This document shows, one piece after another, positions 38,731 through 59,750 of a DNA stretch of 64,000 bases; within the stretch, counting starts at the first letter, position 1; the number at the start of each line of letters is the position of its first letter. The stretch lies in sequence record MT127620; one strand, 5' to 3'. The notes under the pieces are model-generated. The model had not been told where the DNA came from. It saw nothing but the letters and a program-made list of their open reading frames with translations, and ran no database searches. A program made the translations under genes and the position numbers. The stretch comes from Escherichia phage PGN6866.

Positions 38731-39549
38731 TTACCAAGATTTATCTAACCATGTCCAGTCGAACAGGTCTTCCGGAGTCTGACCAACAAAGAGCAGCCGA
38801 GCATTCTCAAGCATCTTCTCTTCATCTTCAGTATCGAACTTCTTATAATATTCCATTCGTACTATATGATACATGGTCCACTTATCTGTAACACCAGCCA
38901 ACAGATTAGCTGCTGCTTTCTTTCCAACACCTTGGCGTCGTAGCTGGAGCTTACCACCCCACATAACTTCTTTACGTTCACCGCATCCGGGGATATTATC
39001 TGTACCATCCCCAATCAACATTTGATAGAAGAAGTTTTGCCATGATACCAAATCAGATACATAATGAGGAGGTACTTCTCTTTGTTTCTCTCCACAAGCC
39101 CAGCGATAATGCCATCCGGGGGTTATTAATAAATCTTTGTCTCTAGTACAGATGATGGTGTTCTTATCCCTACGCTGTCTCTCAGCTAGCGCATCATCAG
39201 CCTCTCTTCCAAACACATCAATGTATTCGTACTTGTCTTTGATGTAATCTCCAACATTCTGCCAATGGAATGGTCTTTCTCCAGGAGGTCTATTTGCTTT
39301 GTAACCTTGTTGCTTGGCAACATCGAAACGGAAGTTACCACCTTCGCTGAAGTAGAATACAACCTTACTACAACCCGAGCGAGCTATGATTGTATCGATC
39401 TTGTACTGAAGTCGTTCAATCATGAAATTGTAATCAACTGGAACACGTCCTGTGTCAAGAAAGGGATGCTCCTGAGTAAGAGCACCCACTTCATATCGAA
39501 GAACGTCAGCATCCACTATAGCTACCTCAGGGAGCTTAACGTCTTCCAT
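38731..39549 (-). CDS. 5'-3' exonuclease / flap endonuclease family
   Basis: 272 aa; N-terminal IVDADVLRYE acidic cluster and internal TRDKDLL motif. Confidence 0.6.
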   Translation of the reverse strand: MEDVKLPEVAIVDADVLRYEVGALTQEHPFLDTGRVPVDYNFMIERLQYKIDTIIARSGCSKVVFYFSEGGNFRFDVAKQQGYKANRPPGERPFHWQNVGDYIKDKYEYIDVFGREADDALAERQRRDKNTIICTRDKDLLITPGWHYRWACGEKQREVPPHYVSDLVSWQNFFYQMLIGDGTDNIPGCGERKEVMWGGKLQLRRQGVGKKAAANLLAGVTDKWTMYHIVRMEYYKKFDTEDEEKMLENARLLFVGQTPEDLFDWTWLDKSW

Positions 39550-45698: not shown

Positions 45699-47543
45699 TT
45701 AGTGTGTGTGCATCCAGTTAAGTCCAATCTGACAATCAGATGCCAGAGGACATTCCATGTTCAGATACTCGCCAGCTTTCTTAACACAAAGCTCAGTGTG
45801 CTCTTTGAGTTTCTGTACATCATTACGGTTTACTGAGAATTGACCTTCATCGTGCATATCAATTACCTTAGCACAACGAACCTTATCTTTCTCAATCCAC
45901 TTGTTAAGGAACATCATAGCATATTTCATAACAACAGCACCAGCACATTGCAGGAGTGTGTTAAGGGCTTTATGAACCATAACCTTACCAGTGGCATCCC
46001 GTCTCATTGTAATCTTACGACCATCAACTCCAATCAAGTATCCTTGAGCAGCTTTCTCTGTCATACGATCAATGAGGATTGCAATACATGGGTTCTCTGC
46101 TAAGAAACGTGCTCGCATCACTGAACCTTCGTCAGCCCCACCACCTACAATTGAACCAAGCTTAGCGTCACCAGCACCATAGTTGAATGCGTAGATAAAC
46201 GTCTTAGCGTTGTCACGAGTAGGAAGACCAGCAAGTTTCTGGTTGTGGGAGTGGATATCACCTTCAAGGAGAATATCACGATACATAATAGCAGAAGCTA
46301 AACCACGTTCTGCCAGAGCTTTCTTAGCTGGGTTGTTCTCTTCGATTGCCTCAGCAAGCATATCCCTACACTCTTTAATGAGGTAGTGAGCGAGCATACG
46401 AAGTTCAAGTCCAGAACCATCATACCCTAAGAATACTTCTTTACCAGCGGGTATGTAATATTTGTAAGCACCTACAGGTTTGTCTTTCTTCCCCGGCTTA
46501 CCTTTCTCGTAAATTACGTTAGTACCTTTTCGTATATAACAACCATCAGGAACAACGTTAGTAATAACGAAAGGACGAGAGTGATCACTGTCTGAGTTAT
46601 AGTCAGACTCAAACAAACTGCGACACTCGTGACCAAACAAACCACGGGAGGGAATATTAACCACGATACGATGTTTGAATCGAAAAGTTGGCGTAGCGCA
46701 GCTGTTAGCTTCTGCCGAAAGTTTACCATCTTCGCGTTCCTTTGCTATAAGTCCACTGATAAGACCCAGCCTGTGAGCCGCTACAACGCGTCTCTTAAGC
46801 AAACTTCCGACACTCCCTAGCTCACCCCCTAACCCTTCTTCAAGAGTCTCCTCGAGGTTTGTAGGAGCTGTAGGCCACTTGTTTGATGTGGCTAGTGCTT
46901 TCTTAATCTCATCAAACGTTACAGGATTACGTCGATTAGGGTTTAATCCCAAACCAAATACGTAAGCCTTCATATAGTTCTTAGTTTTAAACCTAAAATG
47001 CTTTTCTAAGAACTTCTTAATATCAGCGTCAACCATCTCGGCTGTCTGTTTTTGCTTAGCATTACCTCGCATCCAAGCAGTATACCATGCTTGGTATGTT
47101 CCATACTTTCTCATATCTTTCTTAATTTCGAAAGTATTCCAAGGCTTCTTAGATACGTTAAACTCTGGAGGAAGAAAGCCCTCATCCATAAGAGCTTCTT
47201 TAACTCGTGCATCTTTCGATGGGTCAAAGTCTACGTATTCGACACAGGTGAAAGCTCCACCAATATCTTCTCTCTTCAGCCCAACCCTATCACAATAGGC
47301 TTGAGGCCACTTCTGTAAAGCTCCAGACTTCTTAAACGGCTTCATATAAGTAGAGCCATCTAATCTCATCTTAGGTAAGAGAGGAATCAGTTCTTTGTCA
47401 ATATTAACAATAATCTCTTTAAGGAGGTGAACATACCACCGAGCATTTCTTCGGTTGAAACTCACTCCGTGCTTTGCTTGCTTAGAGATTATATCAGCGA
47501 CAGTCATCTCTGTCAAAAATGGAAGAGCGTCCGGGTTGCTCAC
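45699..47543 (-). CDS. DNA polymerase family A, polymerase domain only
   Basis: 614 aa; motif A LGYDGSGLELRMLAHY, motif B RDNAKTFIYAFNYGAGDAKLG, motif C IDMHDEG; GTG start after AAGGAG; no exonuclease motifs. Confidence 0.85.
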   Translation of the reverse strand: MSNPDALPFLTEMTVADIISKQAKHGVSFNRRNARWYVHLLKEIIVNIDKELIPLLPKMRLDGSTYMKPFKKSGALQKWPQAYCDRVGLKREDIGGAFTCVEYVDFDPSKDARVKEALMDEGFLPPEFNVSKKPWNTFEIKKDMRKYGTYQAWYTAWMRGNAKQKQTAEMVDADIKKFLEKHFRFKTKNYMKAYVFGLGLNPNRRNPVTFDEIKKALATSNKWPTAPTNLEETLEEGLGGELGSVGSLLKRRVVAAHRLGLISGLIAKEREDGKLSAEANSCATPTFRFKHRIVVNIPSRGLFGHECRSLFESDYNSDSDHSRPFVITNVVPDGCYIRKGTNVIYEKGKPGKKDKPVGAYKYYIPAGKEVFLGYDGSGLELRMLAHYLIKECRDMLAEAIEENNPAKKALAERGLASAIMYRDILLEGDIHSHNQKLAGLPTRDNAKTFIYAFNYGAGDAKLGSIVGGGADEGSVMRARFLAENPCIAILIDRMTEKAAQGYLIGVDGRKITMRRDATGKVMVHKALNTLLQCAGAVVMKYAMMFLNKWIEKDKVRCAKVIDMHDEGQFSVNRNDVQKLKEHTELCVKKAGEYLNMECPLASDCQIGLNWMHTH

Positions 47544-47559
47544 TTTATACTCCTTTAAA

Positions 47560-47982
47560 TTATTGGTAAAGTAAATCTGTAAATGCTTGGTTATCTTCTA
47601 CTACATTCAGCATGGTTGCTTCATCACTATAAGCCCTAACTGTCCCGTTGACAACTGTCCAAGGAGGGGGCGGAGGTGGTGTATGTGTAGCTCTGGCTTC
47701 ACGAGGTTGTTCTCGTACCAGATGAGCCACAACCCTCTGATTAGCAACTTCTTCTCTTTCTCTAATAGCTCTCTGAATGTAGGCCAGCTTCATACCCCAA
47801 GCTTCTTCAAACTCTTGAGGGTGTTTATCACTGATAACCACATACTGACGTTCAGGAATACCAGAGCGAATCTCTGATAATAATTCATGGAACAAATCTA
47901 GTTCATGTTCAGTGAGATTCATTTCGATATCATCCCACTTTAGAACTAAGAAACGGTTTTGGTGTCTAGCTGGTAATGGCAT
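47560..47982 (-). CDS. hypothetical protein with poly-Pro tract
   Basis: 140-aa ORF. Confidence 0.4.
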   Translation of the reverse strand: MPLPARHQNRFLVLKWDDIEMNLTEHELDLFHELLSEIRSGIPERQYVVISDKHPQEFEEAWGMKLAYIQRAIREREEVANQRVVAHLVREQPREARATHTPPPPPPWTVVNGTVRAYSDEATMLNVVEDNQAFTDLLYQ

Positions 47983-48145
47983 CCTACTCCACCTCTACTT
48001 CAATGTAAGTTCTCTCGCCAACGTCGTCTTTTAAGACCCATGACTTGGCATCTTCTTCAGACTTAAAAGCTTTCACAACGCTGTATCCCCCTTCCCATTC
48101 ATCACCGAACCAGCGCTGTCCTACGTAAATGTATTCTTTCATTAT

Positions 48146-48430
48146 TTAACCTTTTGGGAACGGCATTAAAAATTCCATAGCAGATTTAATTTCATTATTG
48201 ATTCGTGCATCTCGATAAGAGATAAACTTACCTTTGCTATCACGTAACATTACATGAGTTCTAGCCGTTTTATGAGGAAGTAAAGTGATACTGGTTGGGA
48301 TAGTATCAATCCCCACAGAGAACGAATTAACAGTCTTACTCTTGGTTAACAGGTAAGACCAAGTACGTGGTTTCTGCTCTGGGCGGTTAGGGTATGTGTC
48401 TCGAATCTGTACCATAGCTAACTTATTCAT
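48146..48430 (-). CDS. hypothetical protein, tandem paralogue A
   Basis: 94 aa; shares DSKGKFISYRDA...FLMPFPKG with neighbour. Confidence 0.45.
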   Translation of the reverse strand: MNKLAMVQIRDTYPNRPEQKPRTWSYLLTKSKTVNSFSVGIDTIPTSITLLPHKTARTHVMLRDSKGKFISYRDARINNEIKSAMEFLMPFPKG

Positions 48431-48431
48431 A

Positions 48432-48686
48432 TTAAACTCCTTTGGGGAACGGGATGAGGTTTTCTACTGCAACACGGAAAGATTTTTCTACGTTCTTATT
48501 CTTATAAGAGATAAATTTTCCATCAGCTCCTCGAAGGAGTACGTTAGTGCGAGCTGTATTTGGGTTTTGTTGAATCATAGAACGAATGATGTTCTCTGAA
48601 CCTCTATGCTTATTGGTGAATTTCCAACTGATAGTTTTACCGGTACGAGTTACATCAATGATATTTACGATTTTTACAATAGACAT
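48432..48686 (-). CDS. hypothetical protein, tandem paralogue B
   Basis: 84 aa; GADGKFISYKNK...NLIPFPKGV. Confidence 0.45.
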   Translation of the reverse strand: MSIVKIVNIIDVTRTGKTISWKFTNKHRGSENIIRSMIQQNPNTARTNVLLRGADGKFISYKNKNVEKSFRVAVENLIPFPKGV

Positions 48687-48755
48687 ATTTATTACCTAAG
48701 AAGTTTAATTTGGTTTATATAAAAGAAAAGGCCACCTGATTAGGCAGCCTTTGTT

Positions 48756-49049
48756 CTAGAGACGAAGCCAAGTTTGATAGTCAGCTTCAGTGTAATGGTT
48801 GTTTCGAGAGTTGTTTTTCATTTCCTTGAGAGTAGCTCTCAGGTCAATGTTATGCTCTCTCCTTGTTCTATTCGGGTCTGTATCTTCTAATAGATGGGAG
48901 TGATCACTACAAGAGTAGTGCTTATAGTGGTCCCTGTATCCTCTACTTGGAGAATACTTGGTCATTAAAGTTGCAACTCTTTTTACACCCTCTGCTTTAC
49001 AGAATTTACAATAAGTGTGAATTGTACATCTTTTTGTTTCTGCTGACAC
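48756..49049 (-). CDS. hypothetical Cys/His-rich protein
   Basis: 97 aa; CKFCKAEG...HYSCSDHSH. Confidence 0.35.
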   Translation of the reverse strand: MSAETKRCTIHTYCKFCKAEGVKRVATLMTKYSPSRGYRDHYKHYSCSDHSHLLEDTDPNRTRREHNIDLRATLKEMKNNSRNNHYTEADYQTWLRL

Positions 49050-49067
49050 TATAACCTCTTTATGAGC

Positions 49068-49346
49068 TTAAAGCTCCTTTGCGTGCTCCAGCTGCTTTTC
49101 CAGCTCGATCACCACTTTTGCCGCCGTTTGAACGGTTTGAGCTGACTGATTCAACACGTAAGTTGCTTGACGCATTAGAGCCTCCAGACTTGACAGCTCG
49201 TTTGTGTCCAACGTCTTTACCTCTGACAGCAGCTTTTCCATCGCGCTTTTCAACGATGCGACGTGCACGGTGGCGCTGAGCATCTCCGCTCTTGCTCCCA
49301 ATTCCCGTTTCACCGCGCTTGATCGCAGTCCTTCTTTCTTGTGCAT
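49068..49346 (-). CDS. hypothetical helical protein
   Basis: 92 aa; host-like codon usage with frequent CTG; preferred over the overlapping 49060..49374 frame. Confidence 0.4.
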   Translation of the reverse strand: MHKKEGLRSSAVKRELGARAEMLSATVHVASLKSAMEKLLSEVKTLDTNELSSLEALMRQATYVLNQSAQTVQTAAKVVIELEKQLEHAKEL

Positions 49347-49373
49347 AGTCTCTTTTTCCTACATGATCTGCCA

Positions 49374-49703
49374 TTAGATTTCTCCTGATTCTCTTTGATT
49401 AAAGGTGTGGATGGCGTGGCAATTAGCACACAATATCCTGCACTTCCTCATCTCTTCTTTTACTTGAGATAAAGATCTGGTGTGCCCTTTGGAGAGTTCG
49501 AATGACTTAGTTAATGGATTTAAATGATCAAACTGAAGAGCAGATGCGTGGCCCTTAAAGCCACACTCAGAGCATCCATAGAATGTTTTAACTCTACGGA
49601 TAAAAGCTAGTTGCCTAACTCTTCTTTTCTCGTTATCTGCCTTTCTCTTATCTCTATTTCCTGGGTCGGCCCATCTACACGAGTCATTGCAAAACCTCTG
49701 CAT
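49374..49703 (-). CDS. HNH endonuclease
   Basis: 109 aa; CSECGF...LQFDHLNP...CRILCANCH. Confidence 0.65.
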   Translation of the reverse strand: MQRFCNDSCRWADPGNRDKRKADNEKRRVRQLAFIRRVKTFYGCSECGFKGHASALQFDHLNPLTKSFELSKGHTRSLSQVKEEMRKCRILCANCHAIHTFNQRESGEI

Positions 49704-49791
49704 TATATACTTCGTTACAAATGGTACCTTACAGGTTTCACATTCCTTGTGGTATGTTGCTATTTGGACCCCCTTGTGTGAACTATAAGAA

Positions 49792-50241
49792 TCAACTCTC
49801 TTCTAGTATAATCCTGTACATTGCTTCCTGAGCATCTTTCATATCTACATATGGACCAAGCACCTCACTATCTTTTCTGATGAACCAATCACCTTCTTTG
49901 AATATCAGAGATACGTGAACATCTTTATTATTTGCTTTGACTGCTCGCCCCCATGCTGGGTTATGTCGGGATAAATTATCAATATGACAATTATCAGTGC
50001 GCCCATCCAGATGGTGTAAATAAGATTGAGGCCACTGGCCTGTCTCTTTATACCATACGGCTTTCTTCAATTCAACAATGCCACATGGTAGTCCTATGTA
50101 TAGGATATTAGGCTGTAAGCTAAAATTATACCACTTAGATGTGAAAGGGATTAGAGGTTCCCTTTTGGTGAAAAACATCGGCCCCTCTCGAATGTATTCT
50201 AGACTATCTATACACTTCAAAATCTTTTCACTATAAAGCAT
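49792..50241 (-). CDS. HNH endonuclease (HNH_3-like)
   Basis: 149 aa; YLHHLDGRTDNCHIDNLSRHN. Confidence 0.55.
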   Translation of the reverse strand: MLYSEKILKCIDSLEYIREGPMFFTKREPLIPFTSKWYNFSLQPNILYIGLPCGIVELKKAVWYKETGQWPQSYLHHLDGRTDNCHIDNLSRHNPAWGRAVKANNKDVHVSLIFKEGDWFIRKDSEVLGPYVDMKDAQEAMYRIILEES

Positions 50242-50981
50242 TAACTGTTTACCTTTTCCATAGCTTTAACAATAGCTTTACAGAAACCAGAACGAACAAT
50301 GTCATCTGATTCGCCGTCTACAATCTCAGCAAACTCATACAGATCGTGTTCATCAATAAAGTTAGTAGCCCAAGTAAGACCGCTCTCACGACCACGCATA
50401 TCATGCTGGTTAGTATCACCCATGCAGAACAGCTGAGAGGTTTCTCCCAATCGAGTCATGATTGAGAAGGCTTCATCTTTAGTGGTGTTCTGGAACTCAT
50501 CAACAATAACAATAGCATCATTGAAAGAACGACCACGGAGATATTCCAGAGGTACGAACTCAATGTTACTGTTACCGAGCTGGCATTCATAGAACCCCTT
50601 ACCGTATCGCTGAGTAATAACATCAATGATAGGCATCAGGTACGGTTCAAACTTCTCACGCATTCCTCCCGGAAGTAACCCAAGAGAGTTGCCCATGCCG
50701 ACAGAAGGGCGACTCAGAATGATCTTCTGAATCTTACCGCTCTTCAGTGCATCAATAACTGTGGAAGTGATTACAAAGGTCTTACCACAGCCCGCAGGAG
50801 CGTCTGTGAACACAACTTGTTTAGTCTTAATAGCATTGAGTAGCTCAGACTGAAACTGGTTCTGAGGGACTACAGGCTTTGCTAAAACCACCTCTTCATA
50901 CTCTCGCTTACCTTTACGAGTAACAAGTGCTTCCCGACGAAGGTCTTTCCGTGATTCTTTCCGTGATTGACGACGACTCAT
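50241..50981 (-). CDS. phoH: PhoH-like ATPase
   Basis: 246 aa; Walker A FTDAPAGCGKTF and Walker B IVIVDEFQN. Confidence 0.8.
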   Translation of the reverse strand: MSRRQSRKESRKDLRREALVTRKGKREYEEVVLAKPVVPQNQFQSELLNAIKTKQVVFTDAPAGCGKTFVITSTVIDALKSGKIQKIILSRPSVGMGNSLGLLPGGMREKFEPYLMPIIDVITQRYGKGFYECQLGNSNIEFVPLEYLRGRSFNDAIVIVDEFQNTTKDEAFSIMTRLGETSQLFCMGDTNQHDMRGRESGLTWATNFIDEHDLYEFAEIVDGESDDIVRSGFCKAIVKAMEKVNS

Positions 50982-51163
50982 TTACGCTCTCCAATTTCTT
51001 CGTAATGACACTCAGTAGTTAAGCAGTCTTTACAGATTGCTGTATAAACCCTGACGTTAGTAAATCGTTTGTTCTTCCCTTTGGTTGGAGAGCCTTTGGC
51101 AAGCTCTCTGATAACCTTGTTACTTAAGTGAAGGTTTGTTCCTTCACATTTAGAGCACTTCAT
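50978..51163 (-). CDS. small zinc-ribbon protein
   Basis: 61 aa; CSKCEG...CKDCLTTEC. Confidence 0.35.
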   Translation of the reverse strand: MKCSKCEGTNLHLSNKVIRELAKGSPTKGKNKRFTNVRVYTAICKDCLTTECHYEEIGERK

Positions 51164-51479
51164 GGTTCATATCTTTATGAATCCTGTAAACAGCTGTCGC
51201 CATACAAGCAACAGCCTCGTTGTGTGGGAGGTGCATCCCTGTAGAACCATCCCAATCTTTGAACTCATTGTCAAAGACTCCGGTAGGCTCTGGATATAGA
51301 GCTTGCAGCTCCACTAGATCATTAGCAACTTGTTGCCATTTATCATCAGACCAGATAGGGTCATCCAACCAGTAATACAAATAGGAATGGATGATCAATT
51401 GCCTTCTATGCCGATTTATTACTTCAGCGGGACTTATCTCACTTCCATTTGAAGTCCTAAATGTATTACTGTCAATCAT
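51150..51479 (-). CDS. hypothetical protein
   Basis: 109-aa ORF. Confidence 0.4.
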   Translation of the reverse strand: MIDSNTFRTSNGSEISPAEVINRHRRQLIIHSYLYYWLDDPIWSDDKWQQVANDLVELQALYPEPTGVFDNEFKDWDGSTGMHLPHNEAVACMATAVYRIHKDMNHEVL

Positions 51480-51661
51480 TTTACAACCTTAAATTTGAAT
51501 GTTGTTGGGTGGTAATAGTGCAATCTATTGATAGTGTGCTTTGTTTCAAGGTATATCCTGCAAGAGTGGCACATGACATGGGTCAGACCAGTCACAGGGT
51601 TGGGTTTGAAGTTAGCGATAGGTTTCTCTTTCTTACAGAAGCTACAGACTTTCTTTTCCAT
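51476..51661 (-). CDS. small zinc-ribbon protein
   Basis: CSFCKK...CHSCRIY; trimmed to internal Met MEKKVCSF. Confidence 0.3.
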   Translation of the reverse strand: MEKKVCSFCKKEKPIANFKPNPVTGLTHVMCHSCRIYLETKHTINRLHYYHPTTFKFKVVK

Positions 51662-51875
51662 CTTTTCTCCAGTGGTCAACGAATTGCTGAAACACTTTAC
51701 GGTCAAATGTGAAATTACGAGCAATTCCGCATTCTCTAAAAGTGGCAGGCATATAATCTACATCACCTTCAGATGTATGACCATAGACTTGAATAAGCTT
51801 CTTAATCTTATCCTTCTCTCTTCGAGGAAGCATTCTAAATGCCTCCTGAATATCTGTAATATGTTTGATTTTCAT
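51642..51875 (-). CDS. hypothetical protein
   Basis: 77 aa; ATG at 51875 after AGGAA. Confidence 0.4.
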   Translation of the reverse strand: MKIKHITDIQEAFRMLPRREKDKIKKLIQVYGHTSEGDVDYMPATFRECGIARNFTFDRKVFQQFVDHWRKDGKESL

Positions 51876-51887
51876 CAGAAATTCCTG

Positions 51888-52022
51888 CTAATCCTCTGGA
51901 TTATGAGAACAGCAATACTCACATACTCCACAACAAGGGCAAATTTCTACACTTGGGTCATATGCATCATCAACTGTCATCCCACACTTGGTGCAGAACA
52001 CATCGTCATCTTCTTCCAACAT
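51888..52022 (-). CDS. small Cys-rich zinc-binding protein (43 aa)
   Basis: Hand-translated MLEEDDDVFCTKCGMTVDDAYDPSVEICPCCGVCEYCCSHNPED; GGAGA upstream; TAATG overlap; below track cut-off. Confidence 0.35.
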   Translation of the reverse strand: MLEEDDDVFCTKCGMTVDDAYDPSVEICPCCGVCEYCCSHNPED

Positions 52023-52270
52023 TAATTCTCCAAACAAGAATCATTCATCAGTAGCTCCAAACTATCAAGTGTGTAGTAATAACCAAAGAATGGGGCTGTT
52101 GACTTGGAAACCTTTTTATCAAAAAGAGATTGAGAAAGATTTATTTCTACTCCAGCATCTTCAAGCTGTTGTTTTGTGGGGTATGTAATGAAAGAGCAAA
52201 GCACTTCTGTGTACTCCCCTCTGTCTGTCTCTTCAACACGACTCAGAATCCAAATACTTTTACTAGCCAT
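52022..52270 (-). CDS. hypothetical protein
   Basis: 82-aa ORF. Confidence 0.4.
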   Translation of the reverse strand: MASKSIWILSRVEETDRGEYTEVLCSFITYPTKQQLEDAGVEINLSQSLFDKKVSKSTAPFFGYYYTLDSLELLMNDSCLEN

Positions 52271-52271
52271 T

Positions 52272-52928
52272 TTAACTCTCCAAAGTTTTCTTCAGAGCTG
52301 CCCATGAGATTGGGTAGAGTTTAGCCATCTCTTCATCTAGAGATTTAGCAAACACTCGAACTTCATATTGAGCGTGAGAGGAGAGTCGCTGACGGCACAA
52401 CTCAAACCAGCCATACAAAGAACCAGTCCACACCCACTCAGTGATCATCCCCTGAGGAAGAACAAATCGAGCTTGCTCTGGTGCAATAAATTCAATCAAC
52501 TTGTCATATGCTGCTAGAGAAGCTTCATATGCATCGTTAATCAGCATTAATGCTTCAGCTCGCTCTCCGTCGATGAGTTGAATCCCTGAACCTGCATGGA
52601 GGTCCGAAGGTCTCGCAAAAATCTCTTTAGGGATGAAGACTTCAACTGCTCCATCTTTATACCGCCGGGACATTTCGTTCCACGAGAATCCAACCTGATG
52701 CTTCTGTAGTTGACGAGCGATTGCAATTGGAGCCTTACAACGAAAGGACACTTGTGGATGACGGAACGGGGTGCAATGTTTCTCTCTAGCTAAGAAGTTA
52801 ATCAGCCGAGTATCACGATCATTCAAATCACCCTCTCGAACAACACCAAAAGAAACCCTTGCAGCATTAACAACAGTTTTATCACTGCCCATAGCTTCAA
52901 TCAATGTTGCTTGCAATTGTTCATTCAT
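52272..52928 (-). CDS. thyX: flavin-dependent thymidylate synthase (ThyX)-like protein
   Basis: 218 aa; RHPQVSFR and SWNEMSRRY resemble the ThyX RHR...S and SxxESxRY motifs, with Pro in place of the second Arg. Confidence 0.55.
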   Translation of the reverse strand: MNEQLQATLIEAMGSDKTVVNAARVSFGVVREGDLNDRDTRLINFLAREKHCTPFRHPQVSFRCKAPIAIARQLQKHQVGFSWNEMSRRYKDGAVEVFIPKEIFARPSDLHAGSGIQLIDGERAEALMLINDAYEASLAAYDKLIEFIAPEQARFVLPQGMITEWVWTGSLYGWFELCRQRLSSHAQYEVRVFAKSLDEEMAKLYPISWAALKKTLES

Positions 52929-53400
52929 ACTTCAACTTCTCCTTGTTATAAGCAATCTCTGCTTCCTCTGGAGTGTGGAAAGTTCCTAAATGCTTAGTCT
53001 TTCCATTAACTCCGATGATAGCTCTGAATTTTGTACCACTAGCCGTTTCTCTGATGTAAACACCCATTGGAAGTTTTCCAGCTTTTCCGGCTCTGTTGTA
53101 TTGTTTTCTGTTATGACAGTTTGTAGATGGGTCAACATCTCTTAGATTTTTAAGAGAGTCATCCAGTTTAATCTGGTTGATATGATCAATCTCAAACTCA
53201 GGCATCTTTCCATAAGAGAAAAACCAAGCTAATCGACACGCTCTGTAAGATTTCCCTTCATAATAAATGTACCTGTAACCGGATGTTGAGACACACCCAG
53301 CAATGCTCCCTGATACTCTCCTACCTTTAGTATTCTTCCACCTAAAGATTCCAGTATCAGGGTCATATGCTAGGTCTTCTTTTATCTTATCAGTTAACAC
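52921..53400 (-). CDS. HNH homing endonuclease with AP2-like DNA-binding domain
   Basis: 159 aa; EFEIDHINQIKLDDSLKNLRDV...NCHNRK then YRGV-type AP2-like C-terminus. Confidence 0.65.
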   Translation of the reverse strand: MLTDKIKEDLAYDPDTGIFRWKNTKGRRVSGSIAGCVSTSGYRYIYYEGKSYRACRLAWFFSYGKMPEFEIDHINQIKLDDSLKNLRDVDPSTNCHNRKQYNRAGKAGKLPMGVYIRETASGTKFRAIIGVNGKTKHLGTFHTPEEAEIAYNKEKLKYE

Positions 53401-53665
53401 CTAAAGCTGTATCCAAAAATGCTTTCAGGTTTGCTTCAGTCTGCATACCAGAGAGGCTGTAGTGTGCACCACTGTTACGGTCAGGAACAACGAAAGCAGG
53501 GATACTTCGTACACCATACTTAACAGCTTGCTCACGACCATCACCTTCAAGGATGTTAATCTCTTCCACTTCTACATCAAACTCCTTAACAACCTTCTCA
53601 AAGGTAGGAGCCATTGCTTTACATGGAGCACACTGATCACTATAAAACTTAATTACTTTAGACAT
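53390..53665 (-). CDS. thioredoxin/glutaredoxin-like protein
   Basis: 91 aa; active site CAPC, cis-Pro region SIPAF. Confidence 0.7.
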   Translation of the reverse strand: MSKVIKFYSDQCAPCKAMAPTFEKVVKEFDVEVEEINILEGDGREQAVKYGVRSIPAFVVPDRNSGAHYSLSGMQTEANLKAFLDTALGVN

Positions 53666-53673
53666 GTAAATCC

Positions 53674-53853
53674 TTATGCAGTCAGGAGGTGAAGCAGGAA
53701 TGGGATAACAACAGCTACGATAACCATGATGGTTGATGCTGTTTGAATCTCACCTTTCTTATCAGGAGTTTCTTCAATAAGCTTACCAGAAGCCCAATAA
53801 ATACCACCACCAATAAAGATAGCCCAAATACCCCATACGATTGCTGATAACAT
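53674..53853 (-). CDS. small two-TM membrane protein (59 aa)
   Basis: Hand-translated MLSAIVWGIWAIFIGGGIYW...IMVIVAVVIPFLLHLLTA; AAGGA upstream; replaces track ORF 53715..53987. Confidence 0.4.
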   Translation of the reverse strand: MLSAIVWGIWAIFIGGGIYWASGKLIEETPDKKGEIQTASTIMVIVAVVIPFLLHLLTA

Positions 53854-53913
53854 ATATCTATATCCTTATAAATAAGTTCGCCCCACCTCGGGTTAGGAGA
53901 CAGGGCGGAGGTT

Positions 53914-54477
53914 TTAGTAAGACACGTCACCACTTGAATGGGACATGTTGCTCTTGACGAAGTAGCAATATTTGCCAAGACCTTCATTAATTTCTTGAAG
54001 CATACTCTGATCGACAGGGTAGGTGGCTAAATCACCATCAAACTCATCCATCTTCTCAATAATACACATCAAGGTCATGCACATATCAGAGAGCATACCG
54101 TCCATATCTAGGTCAGCATTACCCTCTGAGAACCAAGCATGAGAAAGATAGTTAGCTGCTGTAGCGTCCACTTTAACGCAGTGGTAACGCATACGTTCAG
54201 CAATACGATCTCCTACCTGTCGTGCGTAATCTTCCAGCTCATCAAACATACCATGAACACCCTGAAATCCTGCACCAGAGACGTTCCAGTGGTAGTTTTT
54301 AGCTTTGATATGCAAGAGTTCCATGTTAGCTTGTAAGCAGCTCAGGATGTGTTCTAGGCTGTTTCCACTAATCATACCTTGCATCGTTTCAAGGCGAGAG
54401 ATTGATAGGTCGGACCGGTCTAACATGCTATAACTGTCACGACCAATCTCAGGTAAATCAAAGACATTCTTATGCAT
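53914..54477 (-). CDS. Dps-like ferritin-superfamily protein
   Basis: KNYHWNVSGAGFQGVHGMFDELEDYARQVGDRIAER matches the Dps signature; start set to ATG 54477 after GGAG. Confidence 0.6.
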   Translation of the reverse strand: MHKNVFDLPEIGRDSYSMLDRSDLSISRLETMQGMISGNSLEHILSCLQANMELLHIKAKNYHWNVSGAGFQGVHGMFDELEDYARQVGDRIAERMRYHCVKVDATAANYLSHAWFSEGNADLDMDGMLSDMCMTLMCIIEKMDEFDGDLATYPVDQSMLQEINEGLGKYCYFVKSNMSHSSGDVSY

Positions 54478-54799
54478 TTGGGTTTTCTCCATCAAGTTCA
54501 ACTGAGTTAGCAACGTTACGTGCAATATTATCCATTACCTGCTGGGTAATTACGATGCAGTTCTGTGGGTCTACTGACTTAGAACGCCCCATTTCAGGGT
54601 CATACACCTTAACTCGCTTAGCAGTTGAACCTGTAACCTGAAGAACCTTCAACAGATACCCCTGATTACCAATAGACCAAGCAACAACATCACGATTCTT
54701 GATAAAGCGACCAAGCATATCACGATGATAAAACTGTTGCATCACCTTGGATTTTGTAATCTCTTCAGTGGGCGGGGCCACTTTACTCAAATCTAACAT
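54470..54799 (-). CDS. hypothetical protein
   Basis: 109-aa ORF. Confidence 0.4.
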   Translation of the reverse strand: MLDLSKVAPPTEEITKSKVMQQFYHRDMLGRFIKNRDVVAWSIGNQGYLLKVLQVTGSTAKRVKVYDPEMGRSKSVDPQNCIVITQQVMDNIARNVANSVELDGENPNA

Positions 54800-54871
54800 A
54801 ACTCTCTCCTGTAAAATACAAATTCTTATTGTACTCTATATACATTTGAGAGTTATCATATCTACTACCAA

Positions 54872-55081
54872 TCAGTAGTAAAGTACTTTAGACATAAAAG
54901 AACCAGTGTTAGGGTCTTCATACCAGCGATGTATGTCAGCGCTTTTTACTATTGTGCCCAGAGTCTTCAACTGTTTCTTAGCAATACGAGCCTCTTTGCG
55001 AGTGTCAAACAATTTGATGCTATCTTTTCTCATGTGTTGCTCAAGATCCCAAACAACATGAATAGCCCACATCTTTTTCAT
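54872..55081 (-). CDS. hypothetical small protein, tandem paralogue
   Basis: 69 aa; similar length and pattern to neighbour. Confidence 0.4.
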   Translation of the reverse strand: MKKMWAIHVVWDLEQHMRKDSIKLFDTRKEARIAKKQLKTLGTIVKSADIHRWYEDPNTGSFMSKVLYY

Positions 55082-55290
55082 TAGTAATGCACCTTTCCAC
55101 TGATATAAATACGACCAGAAGAATACTCCTTGGCCTTATGGATACTGATACTATTGACCACATCACCAGTAAGCATAGTCTTTTTAAAATCTCGAGCTTG
55201 TTGGCGAGTGGGTAGTGCAGTCATAGTCATGCCACCTGATGCCCACTTAATCTTTGCTAACCAAAATTGTCTCATAGTGATCGGTCTCAT
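55081..55290 (-). CDS. hypothetical small protein, tandem paralogue
   Basis: 69-aa ORF. Confidence 0.4.
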   Translation of the reverse strand: MRPITMRQFWLAKIKWASGGMTMTALPTRQQARDFKKTMLTGDVVNSISIHKAKEYSSGRIYISGKVHY

Positions 55291-55493
55291 TTTACTAAAC
55301 CCTTCATGTAGTCATAAAGATCATTAGAAGCTTTACCCCATTCAAGGTGCTTCTTATCCATATAACGCTTACAGACTTCTTTATCACTTTCATCACAAGT
55401 GTCAAATCGATGACACGCCCGACCAAATACCATTGCTTTTAACTGAGCATCGGTAGTTAAATATTTAAGTTCTTGAAACTCTTCTTTATTCAT
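55287..55493 (-). CDS. hypothetical protein
   Basis: 68-aa ORF. Confidence 0.35.
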   Translation of the reverse strand: MNKEEFQELKYLTTDAQLKAMVFGRACHRFDTCDESDKEVCKRYMDKKHLEWGKASNDLYDYMKGLVK

Positions 55494-56027
55494 TTACACA
55501 CCCTTAGATGCAACTACACCTTCAGAGTTATTATAACGCCCCTTCACTGCATAGGAGTGTTCCCCTGCATGAGAGTGCTCAAACATGACCATCTGACCAA
55601 CACGCATACCAGCACGAACTCGTAAGCTGTGGTGCTTGGTTACGTTATGGAACTCAAATGTCAGCTTACTGCTATTGAATCCAGCGTCTGCCCATCCAGC
55701 GTGGAGGTGATTCAAACCACAACGAGCCATAGACGAACGCAGAACAAACAGGCTTGAGATGTTATCTGGAAGGTTAAACTCCTCCATAGAGTGAGCCAAG
55801 AAGAACTGACCCGGAGTGATAACCAAACCCTCTTCAGGAATCTTTACTTCCTTCCACTGAAGATTCTCTTTCGCATCAATATCAACGATGCCATCAGCCT
55901 GTTCTTCAACAAGGATAGTATCACCAATACGGATATCCACACTAGCAGCGTTAACATACTTATGCTCCGCATCCAGATAGCCATTGTCAATTACATCATG
56001 CAGTTCAATACTTCCTAGTAAACTCAT
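55494..56027 (-). CDS. dCTP deaminase/dUTPase-family protein
   Basis: 177 aa; N-terminal ...VNAASVDIRIGD... resembles dCTP deaminase. Confidence 0.65.
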   Translation of the reverse strand: MSLLGSIELHDVIDNGYLDAEHKYVNAASVDIRIGDTILVEEQADGIVDIDAKENLQWKEVKIPEEGLVITPGQFFLAHSMEEFNLPDNISSLFVLRSSMARCGLNHLHAGWADAGFNSSKLTFEFHNVTKHHSLRVRAGMRVGQMVMFEHSHAGEHSYAVKGRYNNSEGVVASKGV

Positions 56028-56036
56028 TCTTATTCC

Positions 56037-57407
56037 TTAGTTATTTGTTTCCATGTCAAAAGAGATTCCACGACCCGCTTCATCGGCAAACCGAACTGTA
56101 CGGGTTTGAGGTTCTAATACTTCAGGGTTGTTAGCAATAAAGCGATCAGCGAGACTGCGGCTGTCAGCCGCAGCGAGTTCCTCATGAGAAGGAGTATCAA
56201 GATCGGAGAGACTGCCTACCACATCTTGGGCCACACCTTCATCAGTCCACACAGCCCTAACAGGTGCGTTGATATCACCGACAGCAAAACCCTGACCAGA
56301 GAACTGACGTGCGCTAACAGTTAAACCATTTGGTCGACCACGAGAGGGTCTAGCCATCCATCGCTCCATAGAATCACTTGTAATACCGAGAGCTTCTTCA
56401 AAAGATGCTCTACGAGTAGGGCTTACTCTTCGTGACTCTTGTGCTCTACGCATTGCAGGGGCTACAAACACCCCTTCAATTGCATTATGTCGGTTAGGTT
56501 CTTCTTCCCTTCCAAGCAAATCTCCACCCGTGTTGGTTGTTAAGTTTGTCAACCCTTCAGACCAATATGCATAAATCTGACCAGAGCCATGAACACTTGA
56601 CATTAACTGAATTTCTTCGTAAGGGATTCCAAAGAATCGACTCATGTCTCGGTTAACACAATATTGAGCACTTGTTGTATCCTCAACAAGAGCAACCTGA
56701 CCTCGTTCGTTGACCAGATGATTAATCGGTTGAGGTGTAGGAAGGTATCGAGTTTGTGCCATATATTGATATGCAACAGATGGAGCGGAGAATCTTAATA
56801 CCTGTGAATTAGGCCACTTCTTGTGAACATACTTGATTTCACGACTAGAGACAACCACTGGACAAGGAGAGGTCATAGCCAAATATCCATGGGGGGTCAT
56901 GAACAGCTTGTCAAGAGTCATCGCACCACGGCACATCATAGGAAAATTATCCAATACCTCTTCAATAGAAGTAGGATAATTAAACATGAATTGGATACGA
57001 ACCCCATTCCACTGAAACTCAATAATATCAGTGAATGTTAATTGAGAACCCCCAGCATAGGATTCGTTTGTAGCTTCAGCAAGAAGTGATGAATACTCAA
57101 TATCTTGCGACTCTAGCCATTCCTTCACATTACTTTCAATCTCTCTTCCAAGAGCTTGCCAACGGTCAGTTGATGTGAAAGTGTTTCTACCAGCAGGAAG
57201 CTGCCCTCTGACAATAAAGATATCAATGTCATGTGGTGCTATATTGTTAAGAACAGCATCACGAATAGCCCCACCAGTAATGATGGGATAGATACCGTCT
57301 GGAATCAAGTTGTTGTTAATCAACTGTTCAATGAAGTGACGACCAACAGTGATATCAGGTTGTTGAGCAACCTTATCTTCAATTTGGTTAATCGGGATAA
57401 CAATCAT
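56037..57407 (-). CDS. nucleotidyltransferase of the CCA-adding/poly(A) polymerase head-domain family with divergent C-terminal region
   Basis: PIITGGAIRDAVLNNIAPHDIDIFIV; ATG at 57407 in TAAAATG coupling with exonuclease stop. Confidence 0.55.
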   Translation of the reverse strand: MIVIPINQIEDKVAQQPDITVGRHFIEQLINNNLIPDGIYPIITGGAIRDAVLNNIAPHDIDIFIVRGQLPAGRNTFTSTDRWQALGREIESNVKEWLESQDIEYSSLLAEATNESYAGGSQLTFTDIIEFQWNGVRIQFMFNYPTSIEEVLDNFPMMCRGAMTLDKLFMTPHGYLAMTSPCPVVVSSREIKYVHKKWPNSQVLRFSAPSVAYQYMAQTRYLPTPQPINHLVNERGQVALVEDTTSAQYCVNRDMSRFFGIPYEEIQLMSSVHGSGQIYAYWSEGLTNLTTNTGGDLLGREEEPNRHNAIEGVFVAPAMRRAQESRRVSPTRRASFEEALGITSDSMERWMARPSRGRPNGLTVSARQFSGQGFAVGDINAPVRAVWTDEGVAQDVVGSLSDLDTPSHEELAAADSRSLADRFIANNPEVLEPQTRTVRFADEAGRGISFDMETNN

Positions 57408-57408
57408 T

Positions 57409-57966
57409 TTACATTTTCCAATATAATGAAGGTGGGTCGTAAGGGTCAAATCCCGTGAGTTCACACAAGAAAAGATAAACCTTAACAGTTAAGTTAACGT
57501 CCTGTTCACAATAAGTAAACATATCTTCAGTGAAAGCATCCCATGCTTCCTCTTGCTCACCATAATCGCCCTTAAGCTCTCCTAAGAACTCACCCCACTG
57601 CTTCAAACCATGACCTCTTGGGCCACGTCTAGGGTCGCCTTTCGGATACTCAGGACTGTCACCAATACGGTCAGGTTTAAGATATCGACTAAGACATAAA
57701 GTGTCAAAGACGTTAAAATGATAGTTGATTAAAGAGGGATACATCTTCTTCAGAGCAGGTAAGTCGAAGTCAATAATATTATGACCCACTAGTACATCTG
57801 CTTCTGTAAGTTTACGAATCCCGTCTTCAATTTGGTGAGGCCGATAGCCCCACCTTTCACCAGTTTCAACATCAAAGATATAAATACACCATACTTTAGT
57901 TATGTCATCGTATAGTGCATTACTCTCGATATCGAATGCAAACACTTTCTTCTTTTTCTTTACCAC
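57409..57966 (-). CDS. 3'-5' exonuclease (DnaQ-like), stand-alone
   Basis: 185 aa; Exo I FAFDIES and [15 protein letters not shown]. Confidence 0.7.
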
Positions 57967-59750
57967 GGTGAAGCTCCATCTGCTTGGTTGACGAGAGAAG
58001 CTGCATCCTCTCCGTTAGTTAAAACGAATGGATTATCTTCATCAACTTCAAAGTCTTCCCTTTCTACAAGTCTACCGGTTTCACTGATATACTTAGTATA
58101 GCAGACACCTGTCTGACCGTAGTTACGTTCTTTCAGTAATCGAATGACTGAGAGGTTCTTAGCTAAGCCATCAGCTTGCTTGTCACGCTCAAAGCCAATG
58201 ATACACTGACACCAACGCATAAGAGAACGAGAGCCAGTGAACTGTACTTCACGTACCTGTCCACCTTCTTCATGAGGAGCACCACCTGCCGGAGCATTAA
58301 GGTGAGATAGCACGAAAGCGGTAAAGTCTAGCTCTTTACACATACCAGCAAGCTCGGAAGCAATCTTACTGATTTCAGTGTTAATCTCTGAAGGTGTTAA
58401 ATGAGATACCAGAGCGGTAATGTTATCAAGGATGATAAATTTACACTGGTTTTCAACTACCCAGAAACGGATGCACTGTTTAATGTCTTCCCATTCGTTC
58501 TGTCCGAAGTTGTCATACAAGAAGAATTTGTCTGCATAACGAAGTGCTTCATTACGCAAATCCTCCTCATCATATTCAACATCAGGTCGGTGGAAAGGAA
58601 TTGATGCCGACTTACCAGCAATGTTCTTAACAGACATGCCTACCTTCTCTTCCAAGAAGAAGCCACCTCCATTAAAACCATGCTCTAAGCACAGATGAGC
58701 AACCAGCTCATGAGCAATGAGTGTTTTACCACTACCTACTCCACCACCAATTGCTACCACCTCTCCCCATCGAATACCGAAGGTCATCTCATTCAGAGTC
58801 TTCCACGGATATGGGATACCCCACTCCGCTTTCTTCAGAGCGTCATCAAGACAATCAAAGATTGTTACAGCACCAGCAGGAGATTCCCGCTTTGCTGAAT
58901 ACTTGAGAATGTTGAATAACTCTTGACCACGACCAGACAGAAGCATGTCATTCGCATCCTTAATCTCTTTCTCCACACCGTTGTATGGGAAAGTTCCTTT
59001 AGGAATACGAGCAAACTTAACATGAGGGAATAAAGAACGACCTTTTGTTAAAGCTATCTCACCTGCATCATCGTTGTCCATGCAGAGCACAACCTCCTCA
59101 AAACCATTTACGAAGTCTCGATTACGAGACAACACAGAAGAGATTGAACCTGCACCGAACGGTAAAGAAACACATGCTGGTTTAATGTTTGTTGCATTTG
59201 TAAAAGCTGTAAGGACATGGAAACCTGACATACAGGATAGCGGGTCTTCAAAAATGAAGAGCTTCTTGTTGTACACATCTCCACGTTGAGCTTGTGCCAT
59301 ACCAAACAAATCCGCTTCTTTCACACTGCCGACGTAATAGAACTTCTTACTATCTAGCAGCTTAACCTCATATCCGACAATGTTTCCATCACGTTCACGA
59401 GGAAAGAAGTAACTGTCTGGTGTCTGACCATCAGTTTGACTGAGGCCAATACGACACTCAAAACGCTCTGATACAGCTTTAGGGATTAAACGTCGAGTAA
59501 GTTCGCCCTGAGGAAGCTCTAAGCAATCATCTAAGACTTCTCTCAACTCTTCAGGGGATAACTCTTTCTTCTCGTTTGGAGTAGGTGTAGTGCCCTTTTC
59601 GAACACTTCGTAATTCCCACAACGGTTACAACTTCCCCACTCCTCACCAGTCTCTTCGTTACGGAAGAGAATCATGTGGTTGTGGGTTTTATCACGACCA
59701 TGAGAGATACATTCCTTACAACCTGTGTCTCCCAAAATGATCTTTGACAT
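57960..59750 (-). CDS. DNA primase-helicase (T7 gp4-like)
   Basis: 596 aa; N-terminal Cys zinc-binding segment, TOPRIM-like acidic motifs, Walker [12 protein letters not shown]. Confidence 0.85.

What the first reader, a model, noticed from the sequence alone, without database searches (positions are those of the whole stretch)
45699..57966. Family-A DNA polymerase split into separate polymerase and 3'-5' exonuclease genes 10 kb apart
The polymerase gene at 45699..47543 has motifs A, B and C but no exonuclease motifs. A DnaQ-like exonuclease with the Exo I FDIES motif is a separate gene at 57409..57966, next to the primase-helicase. In T7-like replisomes both activities are in one polypeptide. 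The separation, with HNH genes in between, suggests an ancient split or a complex assembled in trans.
Basis: partly seen in the sequence, partly recalled or inferred. Interest (0 to 1): 0.45.

Follow-up and report, generated by a model that had tools for sequence, protein, structure and literature searches.

The report
Known split T7-type phage DNA polymerase
This phiEco32-like (Kuravirus) coliphage encodes its T7-type DNA polymerase as two genes, a proofreading exonuclease and an exonuclease-less polymerase; the split is real and old, but it was annotated in 2008 and has been described in print since.

Summary
ORF 45699-47543(-) is a 614-aa family A polymerase with motifs A, B and C and no exonuclease domain. 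ORF 57409-57966(-) is a 185-aa 3'-5' exonuclease that overlaps the stop codon of a T7 gp4-like primase-helicase gene.

The two proteins are consecutive halves of a T7 gene 5-type polymerase. The exonuclease aligns to gp5 residues 5-196 and the polymerase from about residue 205 to 704. They also match adjacent segments of a single PHROG profile. The exonuclease is the PolA proofreading type (DEDDy), not DnaQ or RNase T (DEDDh).

The window is a Kuravirus, 98-99% identical to phiEco32, SU10 and DE5. The phiEco32 GenBank record already carries exactly this annotation. Two papers state that the separation is shared by all Kuravirus-group and LUZ24-group phages. I found the same break point and gene order in Lahexavirus and Bruynoghevirus, so a single old split is likely.

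The three HNH genes between the two halves are absent from SU10, and none is annotated there in phiEco32. They are later insertions unrelated to the split.

Proofreading in trans is the best mechanistic reading, but no experiment has tested it. Verdict: already known, low interest.

The parts
45699..47543 (-). Exonuclease-less family A DNA polymerase (614 aa), homologue of phiEco32 gp53 / SU10 gp051. It corresponds to T7 gp5 from about residue 205 to 704.
   Evidence: PF00476 at 83.1 bits. phmmer against T7 gp5 gives E 1.5e-32. The AF2 model has pLDDT 90.5, and its 27 best PDB matches are all T7 gp5. The gene is 99% identical in DNA to phage DE5.
46392..46433 (-). Polymerase motif A (FLGYDGSGLELRML; catalytic D375)
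   Evidence: Translation. D375 and E380 are invariant in 41 homologues. The motif aligns to T7 'DASGLELR'.
46167..46226 (-). Polymerase motif B / O-helix (LPTRDNAKTFIYAFNYGAGD; R443, K447, Y451)
   Evidence: It is nearly identical to T7 'PTRDNAKTFIYGFLYGAG'.
45840..45866 (-). Polymerase motif C (VIDMHDEGQ; H564-D565-E566)
   Evidence: It aligns to T7 'VHDE'.
57409..57966 (-). Stand-alone 3'-5' proofreading exonuclease (185 aa, DEDDy), homologue of phiEco32 gp74 / SU10 gp075. It corresponds to T7 gp5 residues 5-196.
   Evidence: PF01612 at 36.4 bits. The only PDB sequence hits are T7 gp5 residues 3-178, E 2.4e-13. blastp gives E 1e-19. phrog_403 and phrog_38876, both named 'DNA polymerase exonuclease subunit', hit at E 1e-38 and 7e-78.
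57919..57942 (-). Exo I motif (FAFDIESN; D12, E14)
   Evidence: D12 and E14 are invariant in 45 stand-alone homologues.
57751..57789 (-). Exo II motif ([13 protein letters not shown]; H62, N63, D68)
   Evidence: It aligns to T7 'HNGHKYDVPAL'.
57496..57522 (-). Exo III motif (MFTYCEQDV; Y152, D156). The Y-x3-D pattern marks the DEDDy subtype.
   Evidence: It aligns to T7 'YNVQD'.
57960..59750 (-). T7 gp4-like primase-helicase (596 aa). Its stop codon overlaps the exonuclease start codon by 7 nt.
   Evidence: phmmer against T7 gp4 structures (5ikn, 6n7i) gives E 1.5e-32. Pfam finds DnaB_C and a weak Toprim_2. The overlap is shown.
53390..53665 (-). Phage thioredoxin (91 aa) lying between the two halves. 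It is a candidate T7-style processivity partner. This is inferred, not tested.
   Evidence: PF00085 at E 2e-13. The hypothesis is stated for the related phage Privateer in PMC7881722. Polymerase aa 63-134 align to T7 gp5 289-356; by my recollection this lies within or next to gp5's thioredoxin-binding insertion.
38731..39549 (-). Separately encoded 5'-3' exonuclease (272 aa) downstream of the polymerase gene, in the same relative position as T7 gene 6.
   Evidence: phrog_107 'exonuclease' at E 2e-64. It corresponds to SU10 gp029 'exonuclease'. The YF01 paper calls the homologue a 5'-3' exonuclease subunit.
52921..53400 (-). HNH_3 homing-endonuclease gene inserted between the thioredoxin and thyX genes. 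It is strain-specific and not part of the conserved split.
   Evidence: PF13392 at 29.3 bits against a cut-off of 24.8. The whole segment 52929-53405 is missing from SU10. No HNH is annotated at this place in SU10 or phiEco32.
49374..50241 (-). Two adjacent HNH-like ORFs (49792-50241 and 49374-49703) downstream of phoH. They are strain-specific insertions.
   Evidence: Pfam HNH_3 scores 23.5 bits and HNH 21.1 bits, both just under their cut-offs. Segment 49376-50252 has no counterpart in SU10.

Best explanation
The window comes from a phiEco32-like Kuravirus. Its replicative polymerase is a T7 gene 5-type family A enzyme whose two domains are encoded by separate genes.

- The N-terminal proofreading domain is a 185-aa protein. 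Its gene immediately follows, and overlaps, the gp4-like primase-helicase gene.
- The thumb-palm-fingers part is a 614-aa protein encoded 9.9 kb further downstream on the same strand.
- The break falls where the T7 gp5 exonuclease domain ends and its thumb begins.
- Gene order is still that of T7: primase-helicase, exonuclease part, polymerase part, 5'-3' exonuclease.

Shown here: homology, colinearity, the break point, intact catalytic residues in both halves, and the same arrangement in three phage groups.

Inferred:
- A fused ancestral gene was cut once. The cut happened in a common ancestor of the Kuravirus/Lahexavirus and LUZ24-like lineages, by insertion of genes at the interdomain linker.
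- The inserted region then grew from about 2 kb to 8-10 kb of nucleotide-metabolism genes.
- The two proteins re-associate non-covalently at the replication fork, so that the exonuclease proofreads for the polymerase. The phage thioredoxin may act as a processivity factor.

The HNH genes are later mobile insertions with no role in the split.
For: Homology and colinearity with T7 gp5: and the adjacent profile segments of phrog_17.

The polymerase has no exonuclease domain. In the AF2 model (pLDDT 90.5) the protein starts with two long helices, and T7 gp5 is the top structural match.

Active-site conservation:
- D12, E14, D68 and D156 are invariant and Y152 is at least 90% conserved in 45 stand-alone exonuclease homologues of 32-80% identity.
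- The polymerase motif residues are invariant in 41 homologues.

Shared break point and synteny:
- SU10 and phiEco32.
- Aeromonas phage 4_4572, with a 9.6-kb gap.
- Pseudomonas phage phiIBB-PAA2, with a 1.9-kb gap and the same upstream amidotransferase / ATP-grasp / cyclotransferase / primase-helicase block.
- Alignments of the exonuclease C-termini and polymerase N-termini.

Fused state in T7-like phages JSF11 and HTVC105P, with the same flanking order.

Co-occurrence: I inferred shared contigs from matching longest-contig lengths in the two hit lists, for six divergent metagenomic relatives. I did not confirm that each pair lies on the same contig.

Distribution:
- The best 109 polymerase homologues lack an exonuclease domain. 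Five of ranks 110-119 have one.
- All 65 exonuclease hits are short proteins of 101-247 aa, none fused to a polymerase.
- In an NJ tree the split and fused polymerases form one bipartition.

Literature: PMC9965538, PMC3517423 and the notes in the phiEco32 GenBank record.
Against: - No experiment shows that the two proteins bind each other or that the exonuclease edits for this polymerase. The literature searches returned genome descriptions, and none of the listed titles or the two papers I read reports such a test.
- The complex could not be modelled.
- The single-origin tree has only moderate support (57 of 100 bootstraps, NJ, midpoint root, no cellular outgroup).
- The direction of change (split versus fusion) rests on outgroup reasoning, not on a rooted tree.
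- The thioredoxin role is weakly supported. The polymerase has a shorter counterpart of the T7 thioredoxin-binding insertion, lacking about 19 residues of the basic loop.
Confidence: 0.8

Rival explanations
1. The stand-alone exonuclease works independently of the polymerase, for example in host DNA degradation, recombination or primer/end processing. Under this reading the phage polymerase simply lacks proofreading.
For: - No binding data exist.
- The genes are 9.9 kb apart.
- The exonuclease gene is translationally coupled to the primase-helicase gene, not to the polymerase gene.
- The phage has other nucleases as well.
Against: - Its only solved relatives by sequence are the proofreading domain of T7 gp5.
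- It matches the same PHROG profile as the polymerase, in the adjacent segment.
- It accompanies the exonuclease-less polymerase in every relative whose gene context I examined: SU10, phiEco32, 4_4572 and phiIBB-PAA2.
- A 77-kb genome copied without editing would carry a high mutational load. This last point is inference.
Confidence: 0.1
2. The separate state is ancestral, and the single-chain T7 gp5 arose by gene fusion. There was never a split.
For: - The tree is unrooted in practice, so its single split|fused bipartition fits either direction.
- The colinear gene order is what either direction predicts.
Against: - From general knowledge, bacterial Pol I and most other family A polymerases carry the 3'-5' exonuclease domain, or a remnant of it, fused N-terminal to the polymerase domain. 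The fused state is therefore the more parsimonious ancestor.
- The fused relatives P0110-P0119 and the T7-like phages sit on both sides of the midpoint root.
Confidence: 0.12
3. The split is recent and was caused by the HNH homing endonuclease genes that now lie between the halves.
For: Three HNH-like ORFs do lie in the interval.
Against: - SU10 has the same split and lacks all three HNH segments. phiEco32 has the same split and no HNH is annotated in the interval.
- The split has the same break point in Lahexavirus and Bruynoghevirus.
- None of the HNH genes abuts either half.
Confidence: 0.01
4. The two halves are joined after transcription or translation, by trans-splicing, a split intein or ribosomal bypass, to give one chain.
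For: Relatives carry a group I intron inside the polymerase gene, so self-splicing elements do occur in this gene family.
Against: - No Rfam family reaches threshold anywhere in the window.
- Each ORF has its own ribosome-binding site, start and stop codons.
- About 25 same-strand genes lie between them.
- The alignment with T7 gp5 shows no leftover intein-sized sequence at the junction.
Confidence: 0.01

Closest known systems
phiEco32 gp74 + gp53 (and SU10 gp075 + gp051): the split DNA polymerase of Kuravirus / Gordonclarkvirinae
   Same: It is essentially the same genes. The exonuclease is 99.5% identical in protein to phiEco32's, and the polymerase gene is 98-99% identical in DNA to DE5, SU10 and others. 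Lengths, order and neighbours are the same. GenBank notes read 'contains 3'-5' exonuclease domain' and 'lacks 5'-3' and 3'-5' exonuclease domains'.
   Different: This strain carries three extra HNH genes in the interval, and small ORFs differ.
LUZ24-group (Bruynoghevirus) split polymerase, e.g. phiIBB-PAA2 orf29 + orf37; also PaP3 and tf
   Same: The break point is the same. The exonuclease gene directly follows the primase-helicase gene, and the same amidotransferase / ATP-grasp / cyclotransferase block lies upstream. The literature states the parallel with phiEco32.
   Different: Only 1.9 kb and seven small ORFs separate the halves. The polymerase is shorter (545 aa). Identity to the window's proteins is about 35-40%.
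T7 gene 5 DNA polymerase (with host thioredoxin, gp4 and gp2.5)
   Same: It is the best sequence and structure match for both halves. Catalytic motifs match, including the motif B tyrosine. The replication gene order matches. The partner is a gp4-like primase-helicase.
   Different: T7 has one 704-aa chain. The window's polymerase carries about 100 extra residues of insertions (aa ~135-268 and ~338-370, plus ~390-420) and has a shorter counterpart of the thioredoxin-binding loop. Here the thioredoxin is phage-encoded.
E. coli Pol III core, alpha (DnaE) with epsilon (DnaQ): proofreading supplied by a separate subunit
   Same: It is a functional analogy only: polymerase and 3'-5' exonuclease on separate polypeptides that act together. 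This comes from general knowledge and was not tested here.
   Different: Pol III is a family C polymerase with a DEDDh exonuclease. The enzyme here is family A with a DEDDy exonuclease. The two systems are not homologous as systems.

Membership tests
Family A DNA polymerase (Pfam PF00476), T7 gp5 subgroup | Pfam DNA_pol_A match above the gathering score | tested here: met
   83.1 bits against 34.3, over aa 361-611.
Family A DNA polymerase (Pfam PF00476), T7 gp5 subgroup | Motifs A, B and C with the catalytic Asp/Glu and the O-helix Arg, Lys and Tyr | tested here: met
   D375, R443, K447, Y451 and H564-D565-E566 are present and invariant in 41 homologues.
Family A DNA polymerase (Pfam PF00476), T7 gp5 subgroup | Overall fold closest to T7 gp5 | tested here: met
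   The AF2 model has pLDDT 90.5. Foldseek ranks 1-27 are all T7 gp5 chains, with E down to 1e-25 and TM about 0.56.
Family A DNA polymerase (Pfam PF00476), T7 gp5 subgroup | 3'-5' exonuclease domain in the same polypeptide | tested here: not met
   No PF01612 or RNase H-clan hit in the polymerase. The alignment to gp5 starts at about residue 205. This is the feature that defines the split variant.
Family A DNA polymerase (Pfam PF00476), T7 gp5 subgroup | Thioredoxin-binding insertion in the thumb | tested here: inconclusive
   Polymerase aa 63-134 align weakly to gp5 289-356. About 19 residues of the basic loop are missing.
DEDDy 3'-5' exonuclease, PolA proofreading type (Pfam PF01612) | Pfam DNA_pol_A_exo1 match above the gathering score | tested here: met
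   36.4 bits against 23.6, over aa 4-167.
DEDDy 3'-5' exonuclease, PolA proofreading type (Pfam PF01612) | Exo I D-x-E, Exo II N-x(2-3)-(F/Y)-D, Exo III Y-x3-D | tested here: met
   D12/E14, N63...D68 and Y152/D156 are present and conserved in 45 homologues.
DEDDy 3'-5' exonuclease, PolA proofreading type (Pfam PF01612) | 3'-5' exonuclease activity on mismatched primer ends | not testable with these tools
   Requires biochemistry.
DnaQ / RNase T type exonuclease (DEDDh) | Exo III motif H-x4-D, and a match to RNase_T-type families | tested here: not met
   Exo III is YCEQD. The only Pfam hits are PF01612 and a weak PF13482. The only PDB sequence hits are T7 gp5.
Phage 'DNA polymerase exonuclease subunit' with exonuclease-less PolA (split polymerase of the Kuravirus and LUZ24 groups) | Match to the curated phage families of that name | tested here: met
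   phrog_38876 at E 7e-78 and phrog_403 at E 1e-38.
Phage 'DNA polymerase exonuclease subunit' with exonuclease-less PolA (split polymerase of the Kuravirus and LUZ24 groups) | Exonuclease gene directly after the primase-helicase gene, and exonuclease-less polymerase gene downstream on the same strand | tested here: met
   Window, SU10, phiEco32, 4_4572 and phiIBB-PAA2.
Phage 'DNA polymerase exonuclease subunit' with exonuclease-less PolA (split polymerase of the Kuravirus and LUZ24 groups) | Physical complex of the two proteins | not testable with these tools
No biochemical report appeared among the search results I inspected.
Intron-, intein- or trans-splicing-split gene | A self-splicing RNA or intein at the break | tested here: not met
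   No Rfam family in the window reaches its gathering score. The ORFs have independent start and stop codons. No extra sequence is present at the junction.

The most novel reading that the evidence does not exclude
The exonuclease may be a dissociable replisome module, not a permanently bound half of the polymerase. It would be made in fixed ratio with the primase-helicase, because the two genes overlap by 7 nt in the window, SU10 and phiEco32 and also overlap in phiIBB-PAA2. The helicase would then bring it to the fork. On this reading editing could be tuned separately from synthesis, making this a family A counterpart of the alpha-epsilon arrangement of Pol III. My evidence neither supports nor excludes this beyond the gene adjacency, and adjacency is also what simple inheritance of the T7 gene order predicts.
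Probability: 0.1. Interest if true: 0.5.

Novelty: already known. Interest (0 to 1): 0.1.

Why it matters
For discovery purposes it matters little. The arrangement has been annotated since 2008 and described in at least two papers.

Its residual value is as a natural experiment. A T7-type polymerase has been cut cleanly at the domain boundary and maintained that way across several phage groups. A biochemist could use it to ask how a family A polymerase and its editing domain communicate when they are not covalently linked. The same system would show whether a phage-encoded thioredoxin replaces the host one. The search results I inspected contained no experimental study of either question.

Tried and rejected
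- Modelling the exonuclease+polymerase complex. I made no further attempt.
- Reading Savalia et al. 2008 (PMC2587145). The paper is not held. I relied on the citation in PMC3517423 and on the GenBank notes in EU330206.
- First tree script. It timed out and I re-ran it with a faster distance routine.
- Vestigial exonuclease domain in the polymerase N-terminus. Rejected: no family hit at E<=10, the model starts with a helical hairpin, and the alignment to gp5 begins at about residue 205.
- DnaQ / RNase T identity for the exonuclease. Rejected on the Exo III motif and on the database hits.
- HNH-driven split. Rejected.
- Intron or intein joining. Rejected.
- ORF 42127-42873 as a gp2.5-like single-strand-binding protein. 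No solved relative was found by sequence, and PHROGs lists its family as unknown function. It remains only a suggestion, based on its acidic C-terminal tail.
- The second structure job and the large representative-library search were not used. Their results could not have changed the verdict.

Full report
**What the window is.** The polymerase gene is 98-99% identical in DNA to Escherichia phages vB_EcoP_DE5, SU10 and many other Kuravirus members; 93 phage records hold at least 80% of it. The exonuclease protein is 99.5% identical to that of phiEco32. The window is therefore a phiEco32-like podophage (Gordonclarkvirinae, Kuravirus). From about 38 kb onward the genes run on the minus strand.

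**Checking the observation.** ORF 45699-47543(-) encodes 614 aa. It starts at a GTG 6 nt after AAAGGAG. Its only Pfam hit is DNA_pol_A (83.1 bits, aa 361-611). Motifs A (D375), B (R443, K447, Y451) and C (H564-D565-E566) are present and invariant across 41 homologues. The first 360 residues match no exonuclease or RNase H-like family, even at E<=10.

ORF 57409-57966(-) encodes 185 aa and hits DNA_pol_A_exo1 above Pfam's cut-off. It carries Exo I D12/E14, Exo II D68 and Exo III Y152/D156. Across 45 stand-alone homologues of 32-80% identity, the four acidic residues are invariant and Y152 is at least 90% conserved. The Y-x3-D motif makes this the PolA (DEDDy) type, not the DnaQ/RNase T (DEDDh) type.

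The exonuclease start codon overlaps the stop codon of the upstream gene by 7 nt. That upstream gene is a T7 gp4-like primase-helicase (E 1.5e-32 to 5ikn and 6n7i). All descriptive parts of the finding are correct.

**Are they two halves of one enzyme?** Yes.
- T7 gp5 is the only solved protein the exonuclease hits by sequence, over gp5 residues 3-178. It is also by far the best hit of the polymerase.
- By blastp, exonuclease aa 12-181 match gp5 5-196 and polymerase aa 72-614 match gp5 293-704.
- The exonuclease+polymerase concatenation aligns colinearly with gp5. The junction falls at about gp5 residues 200-205, where by my recollection of the gp5 structure the exonuclease domain ends and the thumb begins.
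- Independently, both proteins match the same PHROG profile (phrog_17, 'DNA polymerase') in adjacent, non-overlapping segments: positions 667-826 and 836-1233.
- An AlphaFold2 model of the polymerase (pLDDT 90.5) begins with two long helices. Its 27 best PDB matches are all T7 gp5 chains.

**How old and how widespread is the split?**
- SU10 and phiEco32 have the same two genes, 8.0-8.6 kb apart.
- Aeromonas phage 4_4572 (Lahexavirus, 103 kb) has primase-helicase, one small ORF, the exonuclease, then 9.6 kb, then the polymerase.
- Pseudomonas phage phiIBB-PAA2 (Bruynoghevirus, LUZ24 group) has the exonuclease overlapping the primase-helicase gene and the polymerase only 1.9 kb downstream. The same amidotransferase / ATP-grasp / cyclotransferase block lies upstream, as in Kuravirus.
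- Alignments show that in all three groups the exonuclease ends and the polymerase begins at the same place relative to gp5.
- T7-like phages JSF11 and HTVC105P have the fused gene in the same flanking order.
- In the large protein database, the 109 best polymerase homologues lack an exonuclease domain, and five of ranks 110-119 have one. All 65 exonuclease hits are short proteins of 101-247 aa, none fused to a polymerase.
- Six divergent metagenomic relatives appear to carry both genes on one contig. I inferred this from matching longest-contig lengths and did not confirm it.
- An NJ tree separates split from fused polymerases by a single branch, with moderate support (57 of 100 bootstraps).

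The simplest reading is one fission event in a common ancestor, followed by growth of the inserted region. The direction of change (fission rather than fusion) is inferred from the fused state of family A polymerases generally.

**The HNH genes.** Three HNH-type ORFs lie in the interval. Comparison with SU10 shows that exactly these segments (49376-50252 and 52929-53405) have no counterpart there. Neither SU10 nor phiEco32 annotates an HNH gene between the two halves. They are free-standing, strain-variable insertions and say nothing about the origin of the split.

**Mechanism.** Shown here: both halves keep every catalytic residue, they are inherited together, and they sit in a T7-type replication module. 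That module comprises a gp4-like primase-helicase, a separate 5'-3' exonuclease at 38731-39549, and a phage thioredoxin at 53390-53665.

Inferred: the proteins re-associate non-covalently to give a proofreading polymerase. I put this at about 0.7. The literature searches returned genome descriptions, and nothing I inspected reports a biochemical test.

**Comparison with what is known.** The arrangement is already on record.
- GenBank EU330206 (phiEco32) labels gp74 'type I DNA polymerase, contains 3'-5' exonuclease domain' and gp53 'DNA polymerase-like protein, lacks 5'-3' and 3'-5' exonuclease domains'.
- PMC3517423 (2012) states that in all LUZ24-group phages the polymerase and the proofreading exonuclease are separate genes, and that a similar organisation was reported for phiEco32.
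- PMC9965538 (2023) states that the separation is common to all Kuravirus-group members and to Salmonella phage 7-11, Privateer, Vp_R1 and BUCT695.
- PHROGs and RefSeq use the name 'DNA polymerase exonuclease subunit'.

**Verdict.** The finding is already known, so interest is low. Only the biochemistry of the trans-acting pair remains open.

Noticed in passing
window 47488-47516 (- strand), inside codons 10-19 of the polymerase gene: This is the only perfect sigma-70 consensus promoter in the whole 64-kb window (TTGACA, 17 nt, TATAAT, with an extended -10 TG). It lies inside the 5' end of the polymerase ORF. It is identical in SU10. In a relative with 88% protein identity the -35 is degraded (TTAACG) but TGATATAAT remains. 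The -10 coincides with the conserved codons for A-D-I-I in all five phages compared. Its function is unknown: it could be an internal promoter, an RNA polymerase-binding site, or a by-product of coding.
   Followed up: partly
L007:5354-5617 (metagenomic Kuravirus relative), equivalent to about codon 451 of the window's polymerase (motif B): In some close relatives the polymerase gene is itself interrupted. A 454-aa ORF and a 139-aa ORF are separated by an ORF-less group I intron (Rfam RF00028, 102 bits, E 3e-27) inserted in motif B. Similarly short polymerase ORFs of about 437-460 aa, for example in Aeromonas phage BUCT695, may have the same cause; I did not check them. The window's gene is intact and the window holds no Rfam match.
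   Followed up: partly
window 53390-53665 (-): A phage-encoded thioredoxin (PF00085, E 2e-13) lies between the two polymerase halves. The polymerase has a shortened counterpart of the region of T7 gp5 that I recall as its thioredoxin-binding insertion. The Privateer paper proposes that the phage thioredoxin acts as a processivity factor. This is untested.
   Followed up: partly
window 57960-58060 (-) and 42127-42220 (-): The primase-helicase ends in an acidic tail with a terminal aromatic residue (...[11 protein letters not shown]...ADGASPW). A 248-aa protein of unknown function (42127-42873) ends ...YEDDNDSPF. By recollection this resembles the acidic, aromatic-ended C-tails by which T7 gp4 and gp2.5 bind the polymerase. 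The 248-aa protein has no PDB sequence hit, and its PHROG family has no assigned function.
   Followed up: partly
window 51150-51479 (-): A 109-aa protein consists only of the N-terminal NAD+-binding Ia domain of NAD-dependent DNA ligase (PF22745, E 2e-35). It is annotated 'DNA ligase' in SU10 and phiEco32, but it is far too short to be a ligase. It may modulate the host LigA; this is speculation.
   Followed up: no
window 56037-57407 (-): A 456-aa protein is encoded immediately after the exonuclease stop codon; its real ATG start is at 57407, not the longer ORF listed. It has no Pfam hit. It matches phrog_12715 'nucleotidyltransferase', and SU10 notes a class II CCA-adding enzyme-like domain. 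Its role in the replication operon is unknown.
   Followed up: no
SU10 locus L001:1-2805 and phiIBB-PAA2 locus L005:1-3903 (the corresponding window region lies above ~59.8 kb): A block of glutamine amidotransferase, ATP-grasp (RimK-like) ligase and gamma-glutamyl cyclotransferase-like genes sits just upstream of the primase-helicase gene in both Kuravirus and LUZ24-group phages. This conserved module has no established function in these phages.
   Followed up: no
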